Part shown: piece by piece, positions 5,208 through 12,506 of the stretch | Layout of the letters: each line of letters starts with the position of its first letter | How positions within the stretch are numbered: the first letter of the stretch is position 1 | Notes under the pieces: generated by a model | The model's database searches: none | What the model was told of the DNA's origin: nothing | Seen by the model: the letters and a program-made list of their open reading frames with translations, nothing else | DNA from: a virus | Lineage: Duplodnaviria; Heunggongvirae; Uroviricota; Caudoviricetes | Length of the DNA stretch: 35,391 nt | IMG/VR virus record: IMGVR_UViG_2718218309_000002 | Reading direction: 5' to 3' (one strand) | Made by a program: the position numbers and the translations under genes

Positions 5208-5479
5208 GTATTCGTATTGAAATTGGCGAACGTTATGTCGTTACCAGTGACAGCTTTCAGTTTATTCTCCACGAGAAAAAGAGAGCTGAAAGCGGTAAAA
5301 ACGCCGGTCAGGAATGGCTGGCGGTGGTTGGTTATTACCCGAAATTAAGCCAGCTCGTTTCCGGCCTGATGCATCACGATATTCTGACCGGAAGCGCAAA
5401 GTCTTTTGCTGATTTAAACGCGCAGGTTGAGCAACTCAGCAAGCGTTGTTCAGAGGCTTTTGGCTCATATGGCCGTTAA
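5204..5479 (+). CDS. Hypothetical early protein (P2 orf83-like, 91 aa)
   Basis: ATG at 5204 overlapping the orf82 stop (ATGA). Confidence 0.7.
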   Translation: MSIRIEIGERYVVTSDSFQFILHEKKRAESGKNAGQEWLAVVGYYPKLSQLVSGLMHHDILTGSAKSFADLNAQVEQLSKRCSEAFGSYGR

Positions 5480-7736
5480 AGCCTCCGGGCGTTTTGTCCC
5501 TCCGTCAGCATTTGCCGCAGGCACCGGTAAGACGTTTACCGGTGCTTATGCATGGAACGCGCCACGCGAGGCCGTCGGGCGCGAAAGACCCCTTACACGT
5601 GACGAGATGCGTCAGGTGCAAGGTGTTTTATCCACGATTAACCGCCTGCCTTACTTTTTGCGCTCGCTGTTTACTTCACGCTATGACTACATCCGGCGCA
5701 ATAAAAGCCCGGTGCACGGGTTTTATTTCCTCACATCCACTTTTCAGCGTCGTTTATGGCCGCGCATTGAGCGTGTGAATCAGCGCCATGAAATGAACAC
5801 CGACGCGTCGTTGCTGTTTCTGGCAGAGCGTGATCACTATGCGCGCCTGCCGGGAATGAATGACAAGGAGCTGAAAAAGTTTGCCGCCCGTATCTCATCG
5901 CAGCTTTTCATGATGTATGAGGAACTCAGCGATGCCTGGGTGGATGCGCATGGCGAAAAAGAATCACTGTTTACGGATGAGGCTCAGGATCACCTGTATG
6001 GTCATGTTGCTGGCGCTGCACGAGCTTTCAATATTTCCCCTCTCTACTGGAAAAAATACCGTAAAAGACAGATGACCACGAGGCAGGCATATTCTGCCAT
6101 TGCCCGTCTGTTTAACGATGAGTGGTGGACTCATCAGCTTAAAGGCCAGCGTATGCGCTGGCATGAAGCGTTACTGATAGCTGTCGGGGAGGTCAATAAA
6201 GACCGTTCTCCTTATGCCAGTAAACACGCCATTCGTGATGTGCGTGCGCGCCGCCAGGCAAATCTGGAATTTCTTAAATCGTGTGACCTTGAAAACAGGG
6301 AAACCGGCGAGCGCATCGACCTTATCAGTAAGGTGATGGGCAGTATTTCTAATCCTGAAATTCGCCGGATGGAGCTGATGAACACCATTGCCGGTATTGA
6401 GCGTTACGCCGCTGCAGAGGGTGATGTGGGGATGTTTATCACGCTGACCGCGCCGTCAAAGTATCACCCGACACGTCAGGTAGGAAAAGGCGAAAGTAAA
6501 ACCGTGCAGCTTAACCACGGCTGGAACGATGAGGCATTTAATCCAAAGGATGCGCAGCGTTATCTCTGCCGTATCTGGAGCCTGATGCGCACGGCATTCA
6601 AGGATAATGATTTACAGGTCTACGGTTTGCGTGTCGTCGAGCCACACCACGACGGAACGCCGCACTGGCATATGATGCTTTTTTGTAATTCACGCCAGCG
6701 TAACCAGATTATCGAAATCATGCGTCGCTATGCGCTCAAAGAGGATGGCGACGAAAGAGGAGCCGCGCGAAACCGTTTTCAGGCAAAACACCTTAACCGG
6801 GGCGGTGCTGCGGGATATATCGCGAAATACATTTCAAAAAACATCGACGGCTATGCACTGGATGGTCAGCTCGATAACGACACCGGCAGGCCGCTGAAAG
6901 ACACTGCAGCGGCTGTTACCGCATGGGCGTCAACGTGGCGCATCCCGCAATTTAAAACGGTTGGCCTACCGACAATGGGGGCTTACCGTGAACTACGCAA
7001 ATTGCCGCGCGGCGTCAGCATTGCTGATGAGTTTGACGAGCGCGTCGAGGCTGCACGCGCCGCCGCAGACAGTGGTGATTTTGCGTTGTATATCAGCGCG
7101 CAGGGTGGGGCAAATGTCCCGCGCGATTGTCAGACTGTCAGAGTCGCCCGTAGCCCGTCGGATGAAGTTAACGAGTACGAGGAAGAAGTCGAGAGAGTGG
7201 TCGGCATTTACGCGCCGCATCTCGGCGCGCGTCATATTCATATCACCAGAACGACGGACTGGCGCATTGTGCCGAAAGTTCCGGTCGTTGAGCCTTTGAC
7301 TTTAAAAAGCGGCATCGCCGCGCCTCGGAGTCCTGTCAATAACTGTGGAAGGCTCGCCCGAGGTATCGTTCCAGTTATGGCCCCTACGCCATCTGAGGAT
7401 GCCTCAGCGGTGTTAAATCTTGTTGATGATGGGGTTGTCGTATGGGGTGATCCTGAAGCCATGAGGGTGCTCAGGGATGTGCTAAAACATGACGTGCCGC
7501 AACCAAATCGACACCAGCGGAGCAGGGAACCACTAAAACAGCAGGAAATCGCGCTATCAGCCAGACTGACCAAAGCAGAGCGGGAGCAGATACCGCACAT
7601 CCGTTATGACTTAGCACAGCATAATATCACACCGAAACGTTGGGAACTTGAGGCGCTGGCGCGAGGGGCGACTGTCATTTATGATGGAAAAACATTTACA
7701 TATCAGGTTGTAAATGAATGGGAAAATGAATTTTAA
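5469..7736 (+). CDS. A: Rolling-circle replication initiator gpA (about 755 aa)
   Basis: ORF-track frame 5427..7736 starts at TTG; the first ATG at 5469 gives MAVKASGRF; an HUH-type motif PHHDGTPHWHMMLF and a tyrosine-rich region YIAKYISKN are present. Confidence 0.9.
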   Translation: MAVKASGRFVPPSAFAAGTGKTFTGAYAWNAPREAVGRERPLTRDEMRQVQGVLSTINRLPYFLRSLFTSRYDYIRRNKSPVHGFYFLTSTFQRRLWPRIERVNQRHEMNTDASLLFLAERDHYARLPGMNDKELKKFAARISSQLFMMYEELSDAWVDAHGEKESLFTDEAQDHLYGHVAGAARAFNISPLYWKKYRKRQMTTRQAYSAIARLFNDEWWTHQLKGQRMRWHEALLIAVGEVNKDRSPYASKHAIRDVRARRQANLEFLKSCDLENRETGERIDLISKVMGSISNPEIRRMELMNTIAGIERYAAAEGDVGMFITLTAPSKYHPTRQVGKGESKTVQLNHGWNDEAFNPKDAQRYLCRIWSLMRTAFKDNDLQVYGLRVVEPHHDGTPHWHMMLFCNSRQRNQIIEIMRRYALKEDGDERGAARNRFQAKHLNRGGAAGYIAKYISKNIDGYALDGQLDNDTGRPLKDTAAAVTAWASTWRIPQFKTVGLPTMGAYRELRKLPRGVSIADEFDERVEAARAAADSGDFALYISAQGGANVPRDCQTVRVARSPSDEVNEYEEEVERVVGIYAPHLGARHIHITRTTDWRIVPKVPVVEPLTLKSGIAAPRSPVNNCGRLARGIVPVMAPTPSEDASAVLNLVDDGVVVWGDPEAMRVLRDVLKHDVPQPNRHQRSREPLKQQEIALSARLTKAEREQIPHIRYDLAQHNITPKRWELEALARGATVIYDGKTFTYQVVNEWENEF

Positions 7737-7827
7737 TGATATTAAGATACTAGGAACTAAAGAGGTATATACCCGCGATAATTGAAGGTGCTTGATTTCG
7801 AAGATAATCAGGTTCATGTTAACAGCT

Positions 7828-7971
7828 ATGAATATTGAGTTGACCGTAGAACAAAAAATCGCCATCGAAGCATTGCAACGAAAAAGTCGTGATCTCCATA
7901 TCCGCGATCGGGTCTGCTGCGTATTGCTTTCTTCTGAAAGCTGGTCAATCACAATGATTGCACCATCCTAA
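7828..7971 (+). pseudogene. Possible remnant of an IS630-family transposase N-terminus (47 codons)
   Basis: ATG at 7828 encodes MNIELTVEQKIAIEALQRKSRDLHIRDRVCCVLLSSESWSITMIAPS then stop; the pattern resembles N-terminal HTH regions of IS630-type transposases as I recall them; no downstream catalytic region. Confidence 0.35.
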
Positions 7972-8110
7972 TATATCCATAAAACAACCGCTTTGTGACA
8001 CCTGAATGACTGGACTGGTAGTAAAAAAGTAAACTTGAAACTGGTATTGAGTTTTAAGTGCGCGGGTTTTCGGTAGGGAGGTGACACTCATTAAATTAAA
8101 AGTTTCTGGT

Positions 8111-8140
8111 AAGGGGGCGGGGCCCCCTTTATAGGTTTTT
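8111..8140. terminator. GC-rich palindrome plus T-run: putative bidirectional intrinsic terminator between the A operon and the cargo gene
   Basis: AAGGGGGC-GGG-GCCCCCTT (8-bp stem, 3-nt loop) followed by ATAGGTTTTTT on the plus strand; the minus-strand side is also AT-rich; sits where the two transcription units converge. Confidence 0.45.
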
Positions 8141-11071
8141 TCAGGAATGAATAACCTTTCTAACCTGGAAGCTATCATTATGAGATGGGATTATTTCTCC
8201 TTTGAAAATAAGCCCTTCTCTCAAATACTGCCTGCTTTCAGAGGAAAATATTGTTACGTGGAAAAATATATCTACAGGGAGTTTGTCACAACTACAGAAT
8301 CCATATCCTCGTTGTGGAAAGTATCTTTTAATGATGCACTCCCCACTGATTGCTTCAACGTTTGGTGATTCTTTGCTATAAATATGACTAATCACCATGC
8401 CTATCTCTGTTCTGGAAATGTCACACATCAAAGTGTCGCCATCAACGACGGAATCTATATTATATTGTTTTAATAAATTTTGAGAAATATCGATGGGCCC
8501 ATCAATGTCATTAACAATTAGATATCCAAGGCCACGCTCAACATCATAGCTATCTACAATTGCCCTAGCATGTTTTTTTACGATGCCTAGTTTATAAATG
8601 TCGCCAAGAGTATTCTCTGGTGGTTCGCTTTCATCATATCTATTTTGTTTAAAGACTAATAGTCGATTGATTAACTCTTTTTGGCATTCATATTTTTCAT
8701 GTGTTATCTCATTGCTAATATAAACAGAGTCTTCAGATATTAAATACTCTAGAAATAGATTTCTAATATTGTACATTTTAGAGATGTGATTGCCTTTGGA
8801 AGCATAAGTATCTTTTATTTTATTTGCGATAGAACTGTCGGTGATCGCTGTTGTTAATGCCATTTGATAGAAGTAAACGCTATTACGAGATGCGAGCTTT
8901 AAATGTGCTCTACCTTTATAAGAAATTGCTAATTTCTGATTTGATGAGAGTGTAGTTGATGACATATCATAGGGTTCTATTAATTTTGCCATAATTAAGC
9001 TCTCTAAAGCTTTATCGACAGCTAGTTCTGTTGCTCCTAAAGCATCGAAATAACTGCTGATAGATTGTACGCTTAAATGTTTATCCTCAATGCTTTTTCC
9101 AGGCACTTGAATGGAGTTAAGTAAAGTAAGGATTCTTAACGCTTGCAATGGTGATTGTCTTACTTGACTATCAACTTGGAATATAGGATATATTTCTGGG
9201 ATGTCACCATTTTTATAAACTTCATAATCACCGCGAATTAACGCGTCCATGAAGCGAGTGAAATTTATCGAAGGAAGTTCACCACTAATATAAGATTTTA
9301 TCAAGTCCTCTATTTTAATTGCAGGGGATGTGATTATTCTTTTTGATAATAATAATGTTCTGCGTATATTATAGTTGGCAAGCTCACCAAGAGTTTGTGA
9401 TGTGTAATCATGATTCACAAAAATATTTTCAATCACTTTAGAAAATTTATTTATATCTTCAATGGAAATTTTAATACCTTTTGATAAAAGATAGCTTTTC
9501 TTTTGTTCATTAGTATCTTTATTGTTAAGTTTTGATGTGATGAAGTTAATTCGCTTTCTGAATACTTCCCGTGGGGACGGAGTTGGTAGAAAAAATGATT
9601 TTGATTGATAGATGCTAAATATATCTGTCTTGGAGAAAATCCAAGCTGATTTATCTGTCACGGGGAAAATAACAAGGCAGTGTTTAATGTTTTTTTTAAT
9701 TGAATTGCTAAACTGGAAGACTTTTGTTTTAAAGTCAAGTGTGAATTCATCAGTGTTATCTACGACTATTATTGGAAGCATTTTTCTATTGCTTACAACA
9801 TTGTGAAGGATGCGTTTTAAATATCCCTCTCGATCATTTTCAACAGCTTCATCTAAATAACGTCCAAATTTTTCCTTGAACTCATCTTTACTTCTATTGT
9901 AAAGAGCTGCGTCCGCTCCTCTTGATTTTCTTTTATATTCATTGTGATAAAGTCCAAGGAGATCATTCCATTCAGGTACGCCGTCCTTGTAAAGCTGGGT
10001 CTCAAGGGTTTTTATTATTTCTTCAGTCATCCAATCTAGAACTGTATCTTCTCGCCCTGTAGCTTCTAAGCAGTTTATTTTAATAAGTAAGCATCGTTCT
10101 CTAATCGTTTTATTAAGGGTGCGACTGAAAAAACGGTCTAAAAAAGTCGACTTCCCAGAGCCAGTTGGTCCAACTATAAAAACGGATTGTTCTGACTCTA
10201 GATTTATATCAGACTCAATATTTGACATTATTAAATCAGAAAGCTCATCTCCAACTTTATTTTTATTATAGTTTATATTTGACAAGACGCTAGTTGTTAT
10301 TTTCTCAAGTGAATAGTCTGCAATTCTACTTTCATATGATTCAACAAAACATTCCATCATCATCTCGTCATCTCCCTCTAATCGAGAGAAGAAACTAGAG
10401 AATACCCTTTCTAAATCATAAGCCATATCACTTTTTCTTGTTATTTTTATATCAGATCCAATGATTGGGGCTGTTAATTCATTATTTAACAATAAACGTT
10501 TGTTGTGAATATCATCAAATATAGTGTTATACAATCTTTTGTTAAATGCTTCTTTTGATAATAATTCATAGAACACGCTAAATGATTTTTCGACTGCCTC
10601 GATACTAGGGAATACAATTGCCTCTTTACTTTTGAAGTTTTCACCAGGTATAAATGTTTTGAATATTACCCAACATAACCCATCAGTTAGAATAGAAAGA
10701 GGTATGCCATTTGGCGATGCGTAGCTAAATGCCTGGTTAATTCCTGTCTCGCATTTCTTTAAAGCAGAACCTGATATTTTTAAATGTCTTACAGTGTTTT
10801 TTTGAGCTGTTTCAACTTCTAAAATGCCGATTTTTTTGGCTTCGACAACAAAGGAGGGATGATCATCAGTGGAAAGAATGTAGTCAGAGAATCCATTGTC
10901 ATGGGCAGTTTCACAAGCAATATCAGAGTGCATCCATCCAAGCGTCTCTGTTAATATGCGAGTTATGATTTGAATTTTAGCATCTTCTTCTGATTGGATT
11001 TTTGTGATGTTATGATTAACATCACTCATAATTTTTAAGAATTTTTTTTCGCTGGAATCTAAACTAGTCAT
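8141..11071 (-). CDS. Candidate anti-phage defence protein (976 aa): N-terminal PD-(D/E)xK nuclease-like domain, central P-loop NTPase, C-terminal cold-shock-like OB domain
   Basis: Single uninterrupted ORF in the A-to-cos slot. Residues 55-80 GFSDYILSTDDHPSFVVEAKKIG fit a PD-(D/E)xK / HsdR-N-like nuclease core; residues 301-309 GPTGSGKST form a Walker A (nt 10145..10171); residues 434-442 IIVVDNTDE are a candidate Walker B; residues about 908-976 (nt 8144..8350) resemble a cold-shock domain. Strongly AT-rich relative to the flanking phage genes. Confidence 0.85.
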   Translation of the reverse strand: MTSLDSSEKKFLKIMSDVNHNITKIQSEEDAKIQIITRILTETLGWMHSDIACETAHDNGFSDYILSTDDHPSFVVEAKKIGILEVETAQKNTVRHLKISGSALKKCETGINQAFSYASPNGIPLSILTDGLCWVIFKTFIPGENFKSKEAIVFPSIEAVEKSFSVFYELLSKEAFNKRLYNTIFDDIHNKRLLLNNELTAPIIGSDIKITRKSDMAYDLERVFSSFFSRLEGDDEMMMECFVESYESRIADYSLEKITTSVLSNINYNKNKVGDELSDLIMSNIESDINLESEQSVFIVGPTGSGKSTFLDRFFSRTLNKTIRERCLLIKINCLEATGREDTVLDWMTEEIIKTLETQLYKDGVPEWNDLLGLYHNEYKRKSRGADAALYNRSKDEFKEKFGRYLDEAVENDREGYLKRILHNVVSNRKMLPIIVVDNTDEFTLDFKTKVFQFSNSIKKNIKHCLVIFPVTDKSAWIFSKTDIFSIYQSKSFFLPTPSPREVFRKRINFITSKLNNKDTNEQKKSYLLSKGIKISIEDINKFSKVIENIFVNHDYTSQTLGELANYNIRRTLLLSKRIITSPAIKIEDLIKSYISGELPSINFTRFMDALIRGDYEVYKNGDIPEIYPIFQVDSQVRQSPLQALRILTLLNSIQVPGKSIEDKHLSVQSISSYFDALGATELAVDKALESLIMAKLIEPYDMSSTTLSSNQKLAISYKGRAHLKLASRNSVYFYQMALTTAITDSSIANKIKDTYASKGNHISKMYNIRNLFLEYLISEDSVYISNEITHEKYECQKELINRLLVFKQNRYDESEPPENTLGDIYKLGIVKKHARAIVDSYDVERGLGYLIVNDIDGPIDISQNLLKQYNIDSVVDGDTLMCDISRTEIGMVISHIYSKESPNVEAISGECIIKRYFPQRGYGFCSCDKLPVDIFFHVTIFSSESRQYLREGLIFKGEIIPSHNDSFQVRKVIHS

Positions 11072-11126
11072 TTCTTATCATCCAAAGTGATGTAAGTAAG
11101 TTACGGATAAATTCTTATGTATTGAG

Positions 11127-11154
11127 ATTGTAAGGTAATTAGCCATGAGTTCAA
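11127..11154 (-). promoter_or_regulatory. Putative sigma70 promoter for the cargo gene (-35 TTGAAC, 16-nt spacer, -10 TACAAT on the minus strand)
   Basis: Read on the minus strand: TTGAAC-N16-TACAAT about 55 nt upstream of the start codon at 11071; by-eye match to consensus only. Confidence 0.3.
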
Positions 11155-11283
11155 GTAGTTAGTTTGCATATCCTTGCGTGAAAATGCATCTGTCGTCTGA
11201 AATTGGTTTGCTGACACAAACCCAGCCGCCGCTGGGCAGGGTTTGAAGCGCACCTGCATTAAAACCGCCCCGTGAAGCGGGCA

Positions 11284-11302
11284 GGCGAGGCGGGGAAAGC
11301 AC
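11284..11302. other. cos site: 19-nt P2 cohesive-end sequence GGCGAGGCGGGGAAAGCAC
   Basis: Exact match to the P2 cohesive-end sequence as I recall it; located downstream of Q, where P2 has cos. Confidence 0.8.
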
Positions 11303-11444
11303 TGCGCGCTAGCGGTGGTGCTGATTTTATTTTTTCAGCGTCTGAGCGCGTCGTGATGGCGTTTAGAGTGTGCGCCGGGGCGTTGGTGTGTCTGCGGGGT
11401 GTTTTGTGCGGTGGTGAGCGTGTGAGGGTGTGATGACGGGGTGT

Positions 11445-11471: not shown

Positions 11472-12506
11472 TCAGCCGTTGTCAGTGTCCAGTGAGTAGT
11501 TTTTAAAGCGGATGACCTCCTGACCGAGCCAGCCGTTTATTTCCCGAATCCTGTCCTGTAACGGGATAAGCTCATTGCGGACAAAGACCTTTGCCACTTT
11601 CTCAATATCACCCAGCGACCCGACGTTCTCCGGCTTGCCGCCCATCAACTGAAAGGGGATGCGGTGCGCGTCCAGCAGGTCAGCGGCGCTGGCTTTTTTG
11701 ATATTAAAAAAATCGTCCTTCGTTGCGACTTCACTGAGCGGGATAATTTTAATGCCGTCGGCTTTCCCCTGTGGGGCATAGAGAAACAGATTTTTAAAGT
11801 TGTTGCGGCCTTTCGACTTCACCATGTTTTCGCGGAGCATTTCGATATCGTTGCGATCCTGCACGGCATCAGTGACGTACATGATGTATCCGGCATGTGC
11901 GCCGTTTTCGTAATACTTGCGGCGGAACAGCGTGGCCGACTCATTCAGCCAGGCAGAGTTAAGGGCGCTGAGATATTCCGGCAGGCCGTACAACTCCTGA
12001 TTAATATCCGGCTCCAGCAGGTGAAACACGGAGCCGGGCGCGAAGGCTGTCGGTTCGTTGAAGGACGGCACCCACCAGTAAACATCCTCTTCCACCCCAC
12101 GGCGGGTATATTTTGCCGGTGAGGTTTCCAGTCTGATGACCTTACCGGTGGTGCTGTAACGCTTTTCCAGAAACGCATTACCGAACACCAGAAAATCCAG
12201 CACAAAGCGGCTGAAATCCTGTTGTGAAAGCCACGGATGCGGGATAAATGTCGAGGCCAGAATATTACGTTTGACGTAAATCGGTGAGCTGTGATGTACG
12301 GCAGCACGCAGGCTTTTTGCCAGACCGGTAAAGCTGACCGGTGGCTCATACCATCTGCCGTTACTGATGCACTCGACGTAATCCAGAATGTCACGGCGGT
12401 CGAGTACCGGCACCGGCTCACCAAAGGTGAATGCCTCCATTTTCGGGGCGCTGGCGGTCATTGTTTTTGCCGCAGGTTGCGGTGTTTTCCCTTTTTTCTT
12501 GCTCAT
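11472..12506 (-). CDS. Q: Portal protein gpQ (344 aa)
   Basis: 344 aa, the P2 gpQ length; first gene after cos on the leftward packaging operon; start overlaps the P stop. Confidence 0.95.
   Translation of the reverse strand: MSKKKGKTPQPAAKTMTASAPKMEAFTFGEPVPVLDRRDILDYVECISNGRWYEPPVSFTGLAKSLRAAVHHSSPIYVKRNILASTFIPHPWLSQQDFSRFVLDFLVFGNAFLEKRYSTTGKVIRLETSPAKYTRRGVEEDVYWWVPSFNEPTAFAPGSVFHLLEPDINQELYGLPEYLSALNSAWLNESATLFRRKYYENGAHAGYIMYVTDAVQDRNDIEMLRENMVKSKGRNNFKNLFLYAPQGKADGIKIIPLSEVATKDDFFNIKKASAADLLDAHRIPFQLMGGKPENVGSLGDIEKVAKVFVRNELIPLQDRIREINGWLGQEVIRFKNYSLDTDNG

What the first reader, a model, noticed from the sequence alone, without database searches (positions are those of the whole stretch)
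7737..8140. Decayed IS630-like transposase start in the spacer between A and the cargo gene
A 47-codon ORF (7828..7971) reads like the N-terminal HTH region of an IS630-family transposase and then stops; no catalytic region follows. If correct, it is a scar of an insertion and deletion event, consistent with rapid turnover at this cargo slot.
Basis: inference. Interest (0 to 1): 0.4.

Follow-up and report, generated by a model that had tools for sequence, protein, structure and literature searches.

The report
Dead IS630-family fragment beside phage cargo
The spacer between replication gene A and the cargo gene of this P2-like prophage holds the dead front quarter of an IS630-family jumping gene: an ordinary scar, though such elements are rare in this phage hotspot.

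Summary
The 47-codon ORF lies at 7828-7971. It is the start of an IS630-family transposase gene. tblastn with intact, model-verified IS630 transposases gives E = 3e-24 over their first 68-75 residues.

The remnant is larger than the ORF. It starts at 7770 with a complete 29-bp left terminal inverted repeat, preceded by the family's TA target (7768-7769). It is colinear with intact copies through 8031. The reading frame passes two nonsense codons, TAA at 7969 and TGA at 7996. Similarity is lost by about 8046.

The second HTH, the DDE catalytic domain and the right inverted repeat are absent from the whole window. Fifteen private substitutions sit at sites invariant in five relatives, 13 of them at codon positions 1 or 2, which shows neutral decay.

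The region is not conserved in other P2-like phages. It occurs only together with this cargo, inside a roughly 4-kb ori-to-cos cassette that recombines between P2 backbones.

Most likely an IS landed just after gene A in a peduovirus, and a later deletion or cargo replacement cut it. It is immobile and probably functionless. Interest is low. The one noteworthy point is that a 2026 survey calls transposable elements almost nonexistent in P2 defence hotspots.

The parts
7768..7769 (+). TA dinucleotide directly 5' of the IS end. It is the presumed target site of the original insertion, 32 nt after the stop of gene A.
   Evidence: Six independent copies all read TA|TACCC at their left junction: window, L004, L005, L006, L007/L008 and L036. 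The intact copy L007 has TA on both sides.
7770..7798 (+). Complete left terminal inverted repeat of the IS: TACCCGCGATAATTGAAGGTGCTTGATTT.
   Evidence: It is colinear with the left ends of intact copies. In L007 the left end and the reverse complement of the right end match over about 29 bp. The 58-nt distance from the IS end to the ATG is the same as in L006 and L007.
7828..7971 (+). The 47-codon ORF of the finding. It corresponds to transposase codons 1-47 and ends at a nonsense codon (TAA, 7969-7971) where relatives have Gln (CAA/CAG).
   Evidence: phmmer of the 47 aa alone gives E = 2.5e-12.
7972..8031 (+). Continuation of the transposase homology in the same frame (codons 49-68). It includes a second nonsense codon, TGA at 7996-7998, where relatives have Arg (CGx).
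   Evidence: The tblastn alignments run through both stops to 8031.
8032..8046 (+). Possible last residue of IS homology, which requires a 1-nt deletion. The truncation junction lies between 8031 and about 8046.
   Evidence: Pairwise alignment to L004 gives 14 of 20 matches at 8024-8042, then chance level. No part of 8025-8145 matches any region of five IS copies.
8047..8140 (.). Non-IS tail of the spacer. A G+C hairpin (8111-8129) followed by a T tract abuts the cargo stop codon. It is terminator-like on the + strand and forms the same hairpin on the - strand.
   Evidence: Terminator scan. Folding gives -17.7 kcal/mol on the + strand and -14.7 kcal/mol on the - strand. No homologue in phages or plasmids.
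7351..7736 (+). Divergent 3' part of gene A (60-80% identity to P2, against 95-100% upstream). It forms the left arm of the cassette that carries the remnant.
   Evidence: Invariant together with the spacer and cargo across related loci.
8141..11071 (-). Cargo gene of 976 aa, with an HSDR_N-like N-terminus, a P-loop AAA domain and a C-terminal cold-shock domain. It is always found together with the remnant.

Best explanation
The region 7770 to about 8046 is the dead 5' quarter of an IS630-family insertion sequence of roughly 1.1 kb.

Inferred history:
1. The element transposed into a TA dinucleotide 32 nt downstream of gene A of a P2-like (peduovirus) genome.
2. A later deletion or cargo-replacement event had its left endpoint inside the IS. 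It removed the rest of the DNA-binding region, the DDE catalytic domain and the right inverted repeat. It joined the stump to the terminator and 3' end of the present cargo gene.
3. The stump has since drifted neutrally. It carries two nonsense codons, many replacements of otherwise invariant residues, and probably a 1-nt deletion.

With one inverted repeat and no transposase, the stump cannot move. It now travels passively as filler inside an ori-to-cos cassette: gene A 3' end, stump, terminator, cargo and its promoter. That cassette is exchanged between P2 backbones by recombination.

Shown: the identity of the fragment as an IS630-family remnant, its extent, its left end with TA, the absence of the remaining parts, its decay, and its linkage to the cassette.

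Inferred: the order of events, that the insertion happened in a phage genome, and that the fragment has no present function.
For: Homology:
- tblastn gives E = 2e-22 to annotated IS630-family transposases on plasmids.
- Three intact homologues give E = 3e-24, 7e-20 and 2e-13. I verified them as IS630 family with NF033545 (216-241 bits, cutoff 100) and with DDE_3, HTH_29 and HTH_33.
- Nucleotide identity is 78% to a Pantoea copy over 7764-8013, 84% to the Salmonella spv-plasmid remnant and 87.6% to an Enterobacter remnant.

Anatomy:
- The left IR and TA are as in intact copies, with the same 58-nt leader.
- The only full match to the IR motif in the window is at 7768.
- No DDE part and no right end exist anywhere in the window.

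Decay:
- There are 15 private changes at sites invariant in 5 relatives, 13 of them at codon positions 1 or 2. The closest relative has 1 such change.
- Both stops are one-step changes from Gln and Arg codons.

Orientation: the intact IS end abuts a genuine, though divergent, gene A end. The broken end faces the cargo.

Linkage: all 19 sampled contexts of the ORF or the cargo show the same A-ORF-cargo-portal arrangement. The stretch from about 7351 to 11310 is nearly SNP-free, while the flanks differ by 2-3%.

No alternative function signal was found: Rfam none, PHROGs, Pfam and NCBIfam none.
Against: - No intact copy or empty site in a related phage was found, so the order of events cannot be shown directly.
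- This IS lineage is absent from 5,426 complete E. coli genomes apart from the six prophage copies. It is absent from 50,697 phage records. The insertion therefore must have happened in an unsampled host or phage, or outside a phage altogether.
- The 48 nt between the end of P2 homology (7721) and the IS end (7770) have no homologue anywhere. Their phage origin rests only on continuity with the gene A reading frame.
- Lack of function is inferred, not tested.
Confidence: 0.85

Rival explanations
1. The stump never transposed into a phage. It was already a fragment lying beside the cargo gene in a plasmid or genomic island, and it was imported with the cargo into the P2 hotspot by illegitimate recombination.
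For: - The IS lineage is found on plasmids and chromosomes of Salmonella, Citrobacter, Enterobacter, Pantoea and Vibrio. It is not found elsewhere in E. coli or in sequenced phages.
- The stump and the cargo always occur together.
- 7722-7769 is also non-P2 sequence.
Against: - The intact IS terminus with its TA lies on the gene A side, 33 nt after the stop of a genuine peduovirus A reading frame that is itself part of the cassette. The broken end faces the cargo. An import that cut through an IS next to the cargo would be expected to keep the cargo-proximal end, not the distal one.
- Cargo homologues in other contexts have no IS630 neighbour.
Confidence: 0.12
2. The 47-codon ORF, or the stump as DNA or RNA, has been co-opted. 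It might act as a small HTH-derived regulator, an insulator or terminator region between the convergent A and cargo transcripts, or a binding site.
For: - The ORF is intact from ATG to stop in more than 100 assemblies and is sometimes annotated as a protein.
- The stump lies between two convergent transcription units, next to a strong hairpin.
Against: - The ORF retains only about half of the first HTH. In intact proteins HTH_23 and HTH_29 span residues 25-84.
- Homology continues in frame past the stop.
- Invariant residues are replaced.
- There are no profile hits and no Rfam hit.
- Its invariance is no greater than that of the neighbouring cargo and gene A 3' end. It reflects recent spread, not selection.
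- The terminator hairpin lies outside the IS-derived part.
Confidence: 0.03
3. The resemblance is due to chance, or the spacer is a conserved P2-family regulatory sequence.
For: Profile libraries give no hit to the ORF.
Against: - E-values range from 1e-12 to 1e-24 in three independent searches.
- Nucleotide-level colinearity includes the non-coding IS end.
- There is no match in any phage record.
Confidence: 0.005

Closest known systems
Intact IS630-family elements on Citrobacter plasmids (transposases WP_326979341.1 on pF217-3 and WP_141227218.1 on pCIAM-2) and on Candidatus Fukatsuia symbiotica plasmids (WP_119797901.1; 1,094-bp element with about 29-bp IRs and TA duplication)
   Same: - Same left terminal sequence (TACCCG.GAT.A.TGAAG.TGCTTGATTT).
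- Same 58-nt leader.
- The first 62-68 transposase residues are 50-62% identical.
- A TA directly flanks the left end.

   Different: These elements encode a complete 340-351-aa transposase with HTH_29, HTH_33 and DDE_3 domains and have a right IR. The window copy keeps only about 24% of the element, has two nonsense codons and cannot transpose.
IS630-like remnant upstream of spvR on Salmonella virulence plasmids (for example NC_002638), the Enterobacter remnant cut by an IS110-family element (P0122, L036), and the Pantoea stewartii pDSJ06 copy cut by IS66
   Same: They belong to the same IS lineage, with 84%, 87.6% and 78% nucleotide identity respectively. Each keeps the left end and has lost the 3' part.
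   Different: Their truncation points and insertion sites are independent. They lie on plasmids or chromosomes, not in a phage. The Salmonella copy breaks at about codon 23 and the Enterobacter copy at about codon 44.
Small intergenic pseudogenes in the gpA-gpQ defence hotspot of P2-like prophages (PMC13586616, NAR 2026; hotspot first described in PMC9122126)
   Same: It is a tiny intergenic pseudogene in the main P2 hotspot. That paper interprets such pseudogenes as debris of intense recombination. It reports that 98% of P2-like prophages have at least one pseudogene, that about half of the pseudogenes lie in defence loci, and that about 90% are small intergenic pieces.
   Different: That survey states that transposable elements are 'almost nonexistent' in these phages and that significant numbers were not identified in hotspots. 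Here the debris is clearly of transposable-element origin.
Prototype IS630 of Shigella sonnei and the Tc1/mariner superfamily
   Same: Family-level features match: a TA target, short terminal IRs, and an N-terminal HTH followed by a DDE transposase in the intact relatives (NF033545).
   Different: From my own knowledge, the prototype's N-terminal sequence is not closely similar to this one. No DNA match to the stump exists in E. coli genomes beyond the six prophage copies.

Membership tests
IS630-family insertion sequence (as a functional element) | DDE transposase catalytic domain (Pfam DDE_3 / NCBIfam NF033545) | tested here: not met
   tblastn with three intact transposases matches only residues 1-68/75, and nothing else in the 35-kb window matches. 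NCBIfam and Pfam find nothing in the ORF or its read-through.
IS630-family insertion sequence (as a functional element) | Terminal inverted repeats at both ends | tested here: not met
   The left IR is present at 7770-7798. No right IR was found: the motif search finds only the copy at 7768, and 8025-8145 matches no part of five IS copies.
IS630-family insertion sequence (as a functional element) | TA target-site duplication flanking the element | tested here: inconclusive
   A TA is present directly 5' of the left end (7768-7769), as in five other copies. The duplication cannot be tested because the right end is gone.
Remnant derived from an IS630-family element | Significant, colinear homology to the N-terminal HTH region of transposases that themselves pass the family model | tested here: met
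   E = 3e-24, 7e-20 and 2e-13. The homologues score 216-241 bits on NF033545 against a cutoff of 100. The 47 aa alone give E = 2.5e-12 against 1.84e9 proteins.
Remnant derived from an IS630-family element | Homology extends into the non-coding IS terminus and stops at the IS boundary | tested here: met
   Alignments of the independent copies diverge exactly upstream of TA|TACCC.
Pseudogene (neutral decay) | Disabling mutations and loss of purifying selection relative to functional relatives | tested here: met
   Two in-frame nonsense codons. 15 private changes at sites invariant in 5 relatives, 13 of them at codon positions 1 or 2. The five relatives show 1-14 such changes, most of them at position 3.
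P2-like (Peduovirus) gpA-gpQ/cos variable hotspot | Location between replication gene A and cos/portal gene Q, replacing P2 orf91-tin-old | tested here: met
   P2 homology ends at 7721 (P2 position 30286) and resumes at 11255 (P2 position 33546, cosR). Gene order is given.
Functional small HTH protein | A complete HTH domain recognised by a profile | tested here: not met
   There is no HTH profile hit even at E <= 10. The ORF stops at residue 47, whereas HTH_23 and HTH_29 span residues 25-84 in intact relatives.

The most novel reading that the evidence does not exclude
The truncated IS marks the non-homologous junction through which the present HSDR_N-AAA-cold-shock cargo entered the peduovirus hotspot. 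On this reading, an IS630-family insertion created or seeded the breakpoint of a cargo swap. Transposable elements would then contribute, at least occasionally, to defence-gene capture in P2-like phages. A 2026 survey of thousands of P2 and P4 elements could not find evidence for this route.
Probability: 0.15. Interest if true: 0.4.

Novelty: new member of a known kind. Interest (0 to 1): 0.17.

Why it matters
Practically, it corrects an annotation. The 'hypothetical protein' WP_001755157.1 is the stump of an IS630-family transposase pseudogene, not a phage gene.

Biologically, it gives a dated, directional scar in the main defence hotspot of P2-like phages. The intact IS end faces gene A and the broken end faces the cargo. 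So the last rearrangement that placed this cargo had a non-homologous left junction inside an IS.

Transposable elements are reported to be almost nonexistent in these hotspots (PMC13586616). This is therefore a rare documented case of one having landed there. It remains a single passive remnant, with no evidence of function.

Tried and rejected
- Profile scans of the 47-aa ORF and of the 88-aa read-through (Pfam, NCBIfam, PHROGs) found no relevant hit. The fragment is too short and too decayed, so the identification came from tblastn and phmmer instead.
- The word-indexed protein search with the restored 75-aa sequence found only the identical 47-aa protein. It was uninformative.
- blastn of the spacer against phages found no match. 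This rejects the idea of a conserved P2 regulatory region.
- I looked for an intact copy or an empty site at the same position:
  - An exact junction 25-mer in IMG/VR gave 0 hits.
  - The gene A C-terminal 124 aa in IMG/VR gave only two contigs of the same lineage.
  - E. coli genomes in 'near' and 'distant' modes gave only the six prophage copies.
- I looked for the cargo's donor. In the GTDB species representatives only one relative was found, at 42% identity. The nearest homologues in the large protein set are 59% identical and have no IS630 neighbour.
- I checked whether the closest remnant (P0122, 80% aa identity) was an orthologous scar in another prophage. It is not. It lies in an Enterobacter-type chromosomal IS junction.
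- A search for a right IR or an internal-deletion junction in 8025-8145 gave only chance-level 7-10-mers.
- Rfam on 7600-8300 found nothing.
- The promoter scan gave numbers no higher than in shuffled sequence.
- A literature search for IS630 with spvR gave no paper naming the element. ISfinder was unavailable, so the IS has no name here.

Full report
**Context.** The window is a P2-like (peduovirus) prophage. Integrase, C, cox, B and the early genes lead to replication gene A on the + strand. The ORF listing gives A as 5427-7736, and RefSeq starts it 42 nt later. A 976-aa gene lies convergent to A on the minus strand (8141-11071). It is followed by cos and the portal gene Q (11472-12506, minus). 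The finding concerns the 404-nt spacer 7737-8140 between A and this cargo gene. In P2 itself, this slot holds orf91, tin and old.

**Observation.** The ORF is there as described. An ATG at 7828 is followed by 47 codons and a TAA at 7969-7971. RefSeq annotates exactly this ORF as hypothetical protein WP_001755157.1 in two of the six complete E. coli genomes that carry the spacer.

**Identity of the fragment.**
- Profile libraries see nothing relevant in the 47 residues (Pfam, NCBIfam, PHROGs).
- Translating the spacer shows that the same frame keeps reading sensibly beyond the stop...MIAPS*YIHKTTAL*HLNDW...
- tblastn of this read-through against 72,556 plasmids hits annotated IS630-family transposases at E = 2e-22 to 1e-11, with 46-68% identity over residues 1-68.
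- I took three intact homologues, from Citrobacter braakii pF217-3, C. amalonaticus pCIAM-2 and Candidatus Fukatsuia, and checked their family membership by model. They score 216-241 bits on NF033545 'IS630 family transposase' (cutoff 100). They have HTH_29/HTH_23 at residues about 25-84, HTH_33 at about 96-152 and DDE_3 at about 164-306.
- Searched back against the window, they match only 7828-8031 (7807-8031 for the pCIAM-2 protein, which has 7 extra N-terminal residues). This covers residues 1-68/75 in one frame across both stops, at E = 3e-24, 7e-20 and 2e-13. Nothing else in the 35 kb matches.
- The 47 residues alone, searched by phmmer against 1.84 billion representative proteins, give 25 hits at E <= 1e-3 (best 2.5e-12). 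All hits are short ORFs of 44-166 aa. Seven of the eight I scanned show fragments of HTH_29, HTH_23, HTH_33 or DDE_3, so they are other broken N-termini of the same transposase lineage.

**Extent and anatomy.**
- At the DNA level the spacer is 78% identical to a Pantoea stewartii plasmid copy over 7764-8013. It is 84% identical to a remnant upstream of spvR on Salmonella virulence plasmids over 7768-7900, and 87.6% identical to an Enterobacter-type remnant over 7767-7959.
- Alignments of these independent copies diverge exactly upstream of the sequence TA|TACCCG.
- In the intact 1,094-bp Fukatsuia copy, the left end and the reverse complement of the right end match over about 29 bp, and TA flanks both ends. 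This is the IS630-family hallmark.
- In the window the TA is at 7768-7769 and the complete left inverted repeat is at 7770-7798. The ATG follows after the same 58 nt as in intact copies.
- Colinearity holds to 8031. With a 1-nt deletion it may extend to about 8046. Beyond that, identity is at chance level.
- No right inverted repeat exists. The only full match to the end motif in the window is at 7768. 8025-8145 matches no part of five IS copies.
- About 24% of the element survives: the left IR, the leader and the first 68-73 codons, which cover only part of the first HTH.

**Decay.**
- Both stops are single-step changes from codons conserved in relatives. Gln became TAA at codon 48, and Arg (CGx) became TGA at codon 57.
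- At sites where all five relatives agree, the window copy has 15 private changes, 13 of them at codon positions 1 or 2. They include R30C, G38S, Q46P and E52K. The closest relative has 1 such change.
- Among the relatives themselves, differences concentrate at third positions. This is the signature of a pseudogene.

**The rest of the spacer.** 8047-8140 has no homologue in phages or plasmids. It contains a G+C hairpin (8111-8129) followed by a T tract that runs into the cargo's stop codon. It is terminator-like on the + strand. The hairpin also forms on the minus strand, directly after the cargo gene. Rfam finds nothing in 7600-8300.

**Comparison with P2 relatives.**
- The spacer has no match in 50,697 phage records.
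- Identity to P2 is 95-100% through gene A up to 7350. It falls to 60-80% from 7351. That is 24 nt beyond the position corresponding to the P2 ori nick, which maps to 7327. Identity is lost at 7721 and resumes at 11255-11302 at cosR.
- All sampled contigs carrying the 47-aa ORF or the cargo show the same A-ORF-cargo-portal arrangement, as do two IMG/VR contigs.
- Across these 23 loci, the stretch from about 7351 to 11310 is either essentially identical to the window (0-2 SNPs) or belongs to one alternative haplotype. The 5' part of A and gene Q differ by 2-3%.
- The remnant is therefore part of an ori-to-cos cassette of about 4 kb that is exchanged among P2 backbones. Its invariance reflects recent spread rather than selection on it.

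**History and mechanism.** The intact IS terminus with its TA lies 33 nt past the stop of a genuine, if divergent, peduovirus A reading frame. The broken end faces the cargo. The simplest reading has three steps:
1. An IS630-family element transposed into a TA just downstream of A in a peduovirus.
2. A later deletion or cargo replacement had its left endpoint inside the IS. It removed three-quarters of the IS and left the present terminator and cargo next to the stump.
3. The stump decayed.

The host in which this happened was probably not E. coli. No other copy of this IS lineage exists in 5,426 complete E. coli genomes. Its relatives are in Salmonella, Citrobacter, Enterobacter, Pantoea, Vibrio and Photobacterium.

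The main rival is that a pre-existing stump was imported together with the cargo from a non-phage donor. It is disfavoured by the orientation argument and by the absence of IS630 neighbours beside cargo homologues. It is not excluded, because no intact copy or empty site was found.

Co-option of the 47-aa peptide or of the stump is very unlikely. Only half an HTH remains, homology runs past the stop, invariant residues are replaced, and there are no profile or Rfam hits.

**Comparison with what is known.**
- The fragment is not an IS630-family element in the functional sense. The DDE domain and the right IR were tested for and are absent.
- It is, with high confidence, derived from one.
- It belongs to the class of small intergenic pseudogenes that a 2026 survey found to be common in P2 and P4 defence loci and interpreted as recombination debris (PMC13586616).
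- The same paper states that transposable elements are 'almost nonexistent' in these phages and were not found in significant numbers in hotspots. In line with that, tblastn of an intact transposase of this lineage against all 50,697 phage records gives only two remote hits, neither of them in a P2-like phage. That rarity is the only mildly unusual aspect.

**Verdict.** The feature is an ordinary, immobile, unannotated IS630-family scar. Novelty: a new member of a known kind. Interest is low.

Noticed in passing
window 7327-7351 and 11255-11311: The variable cassette is bounded by ori and cos. Identity to P2 collapses at 7351, 24 nt after the position matching the P2 ori nick (7327), and returns at cosR. 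Across 23 related loci, about 7351-11310 is nearly SNP-free while the 5' part of A and gene Q differ by 2-3%. The whole right arm of the linear genome therefore seems to swap as a unit, taking about 125 C-terminal codons of gene A with it.
   Followed up: partly
window 8141-11071 (minus strand): The cargo is a 976-aa single gene. It has a P-loop AAA domain, a weak C-terminal cold-shock domain hit, and an HSDR_N-type N-terminal domain (PF04313) recorded only for several homologues, not for this protein itself. It has more than 400 homologues, but none between 99% and 59% identity. PADLOC gives only weak hits. The nearest relative (59%) sits next to a Phage_GPA gene and an integrase in a metagenome contig (L032). 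The Vibrio cholerae homologue is a stand-alone chromosomal gene. It is a candidate single-gene defence system that I could not assign to a named family.
   Followed up: partly
L008 1801-1932 (NC_002638), L036 5940-6132, L004 2437-3300: This IS630 lineage is seen mostly as wreckage. One remnant lies upstream of spvR on Salmonella plasmids, and matching remnants occur in 381 Salmonella plasmid records (one record inspected). One Enterobacter-type copy is cut by an IS110-family element. One Pantoea copy appears cut next to an IS66-family element. All 25 phmmer hits of the 47-aa ORF are ORFs of 44-166 aa.
   Followed up: partly
window 7381-7404, 7896, 8002, 8088: The cassette exists in two haplotypes. 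The alternative one has 10 SNPs in the gene A 3' part, the last five at 7381-7404. It also has three SNPs in the spacer and about 11 in the cargo. This suggests a further recombination breakpoint inside the gene A 3' end.
   Followed up: no
L001/L002 6092-6235 versus the four other complete genomes: RefSeq annotation is inconsistent. The 47-codon ORF is called a hypothetical protein (WP_001755157.1) in two of six complete genomes and is left unannotated in four. In no case is it flagged as a transposase pseudogene.
   Followed up: yes
L017 10679-12144: One related prophage appears degraded. An 89-aa terminase C-terminal fragment lies directly next to sheath, tube and tape-measure gene fragments. 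It still keeps the intact A-stump-cargo-portal cassette.
   Followed up: no
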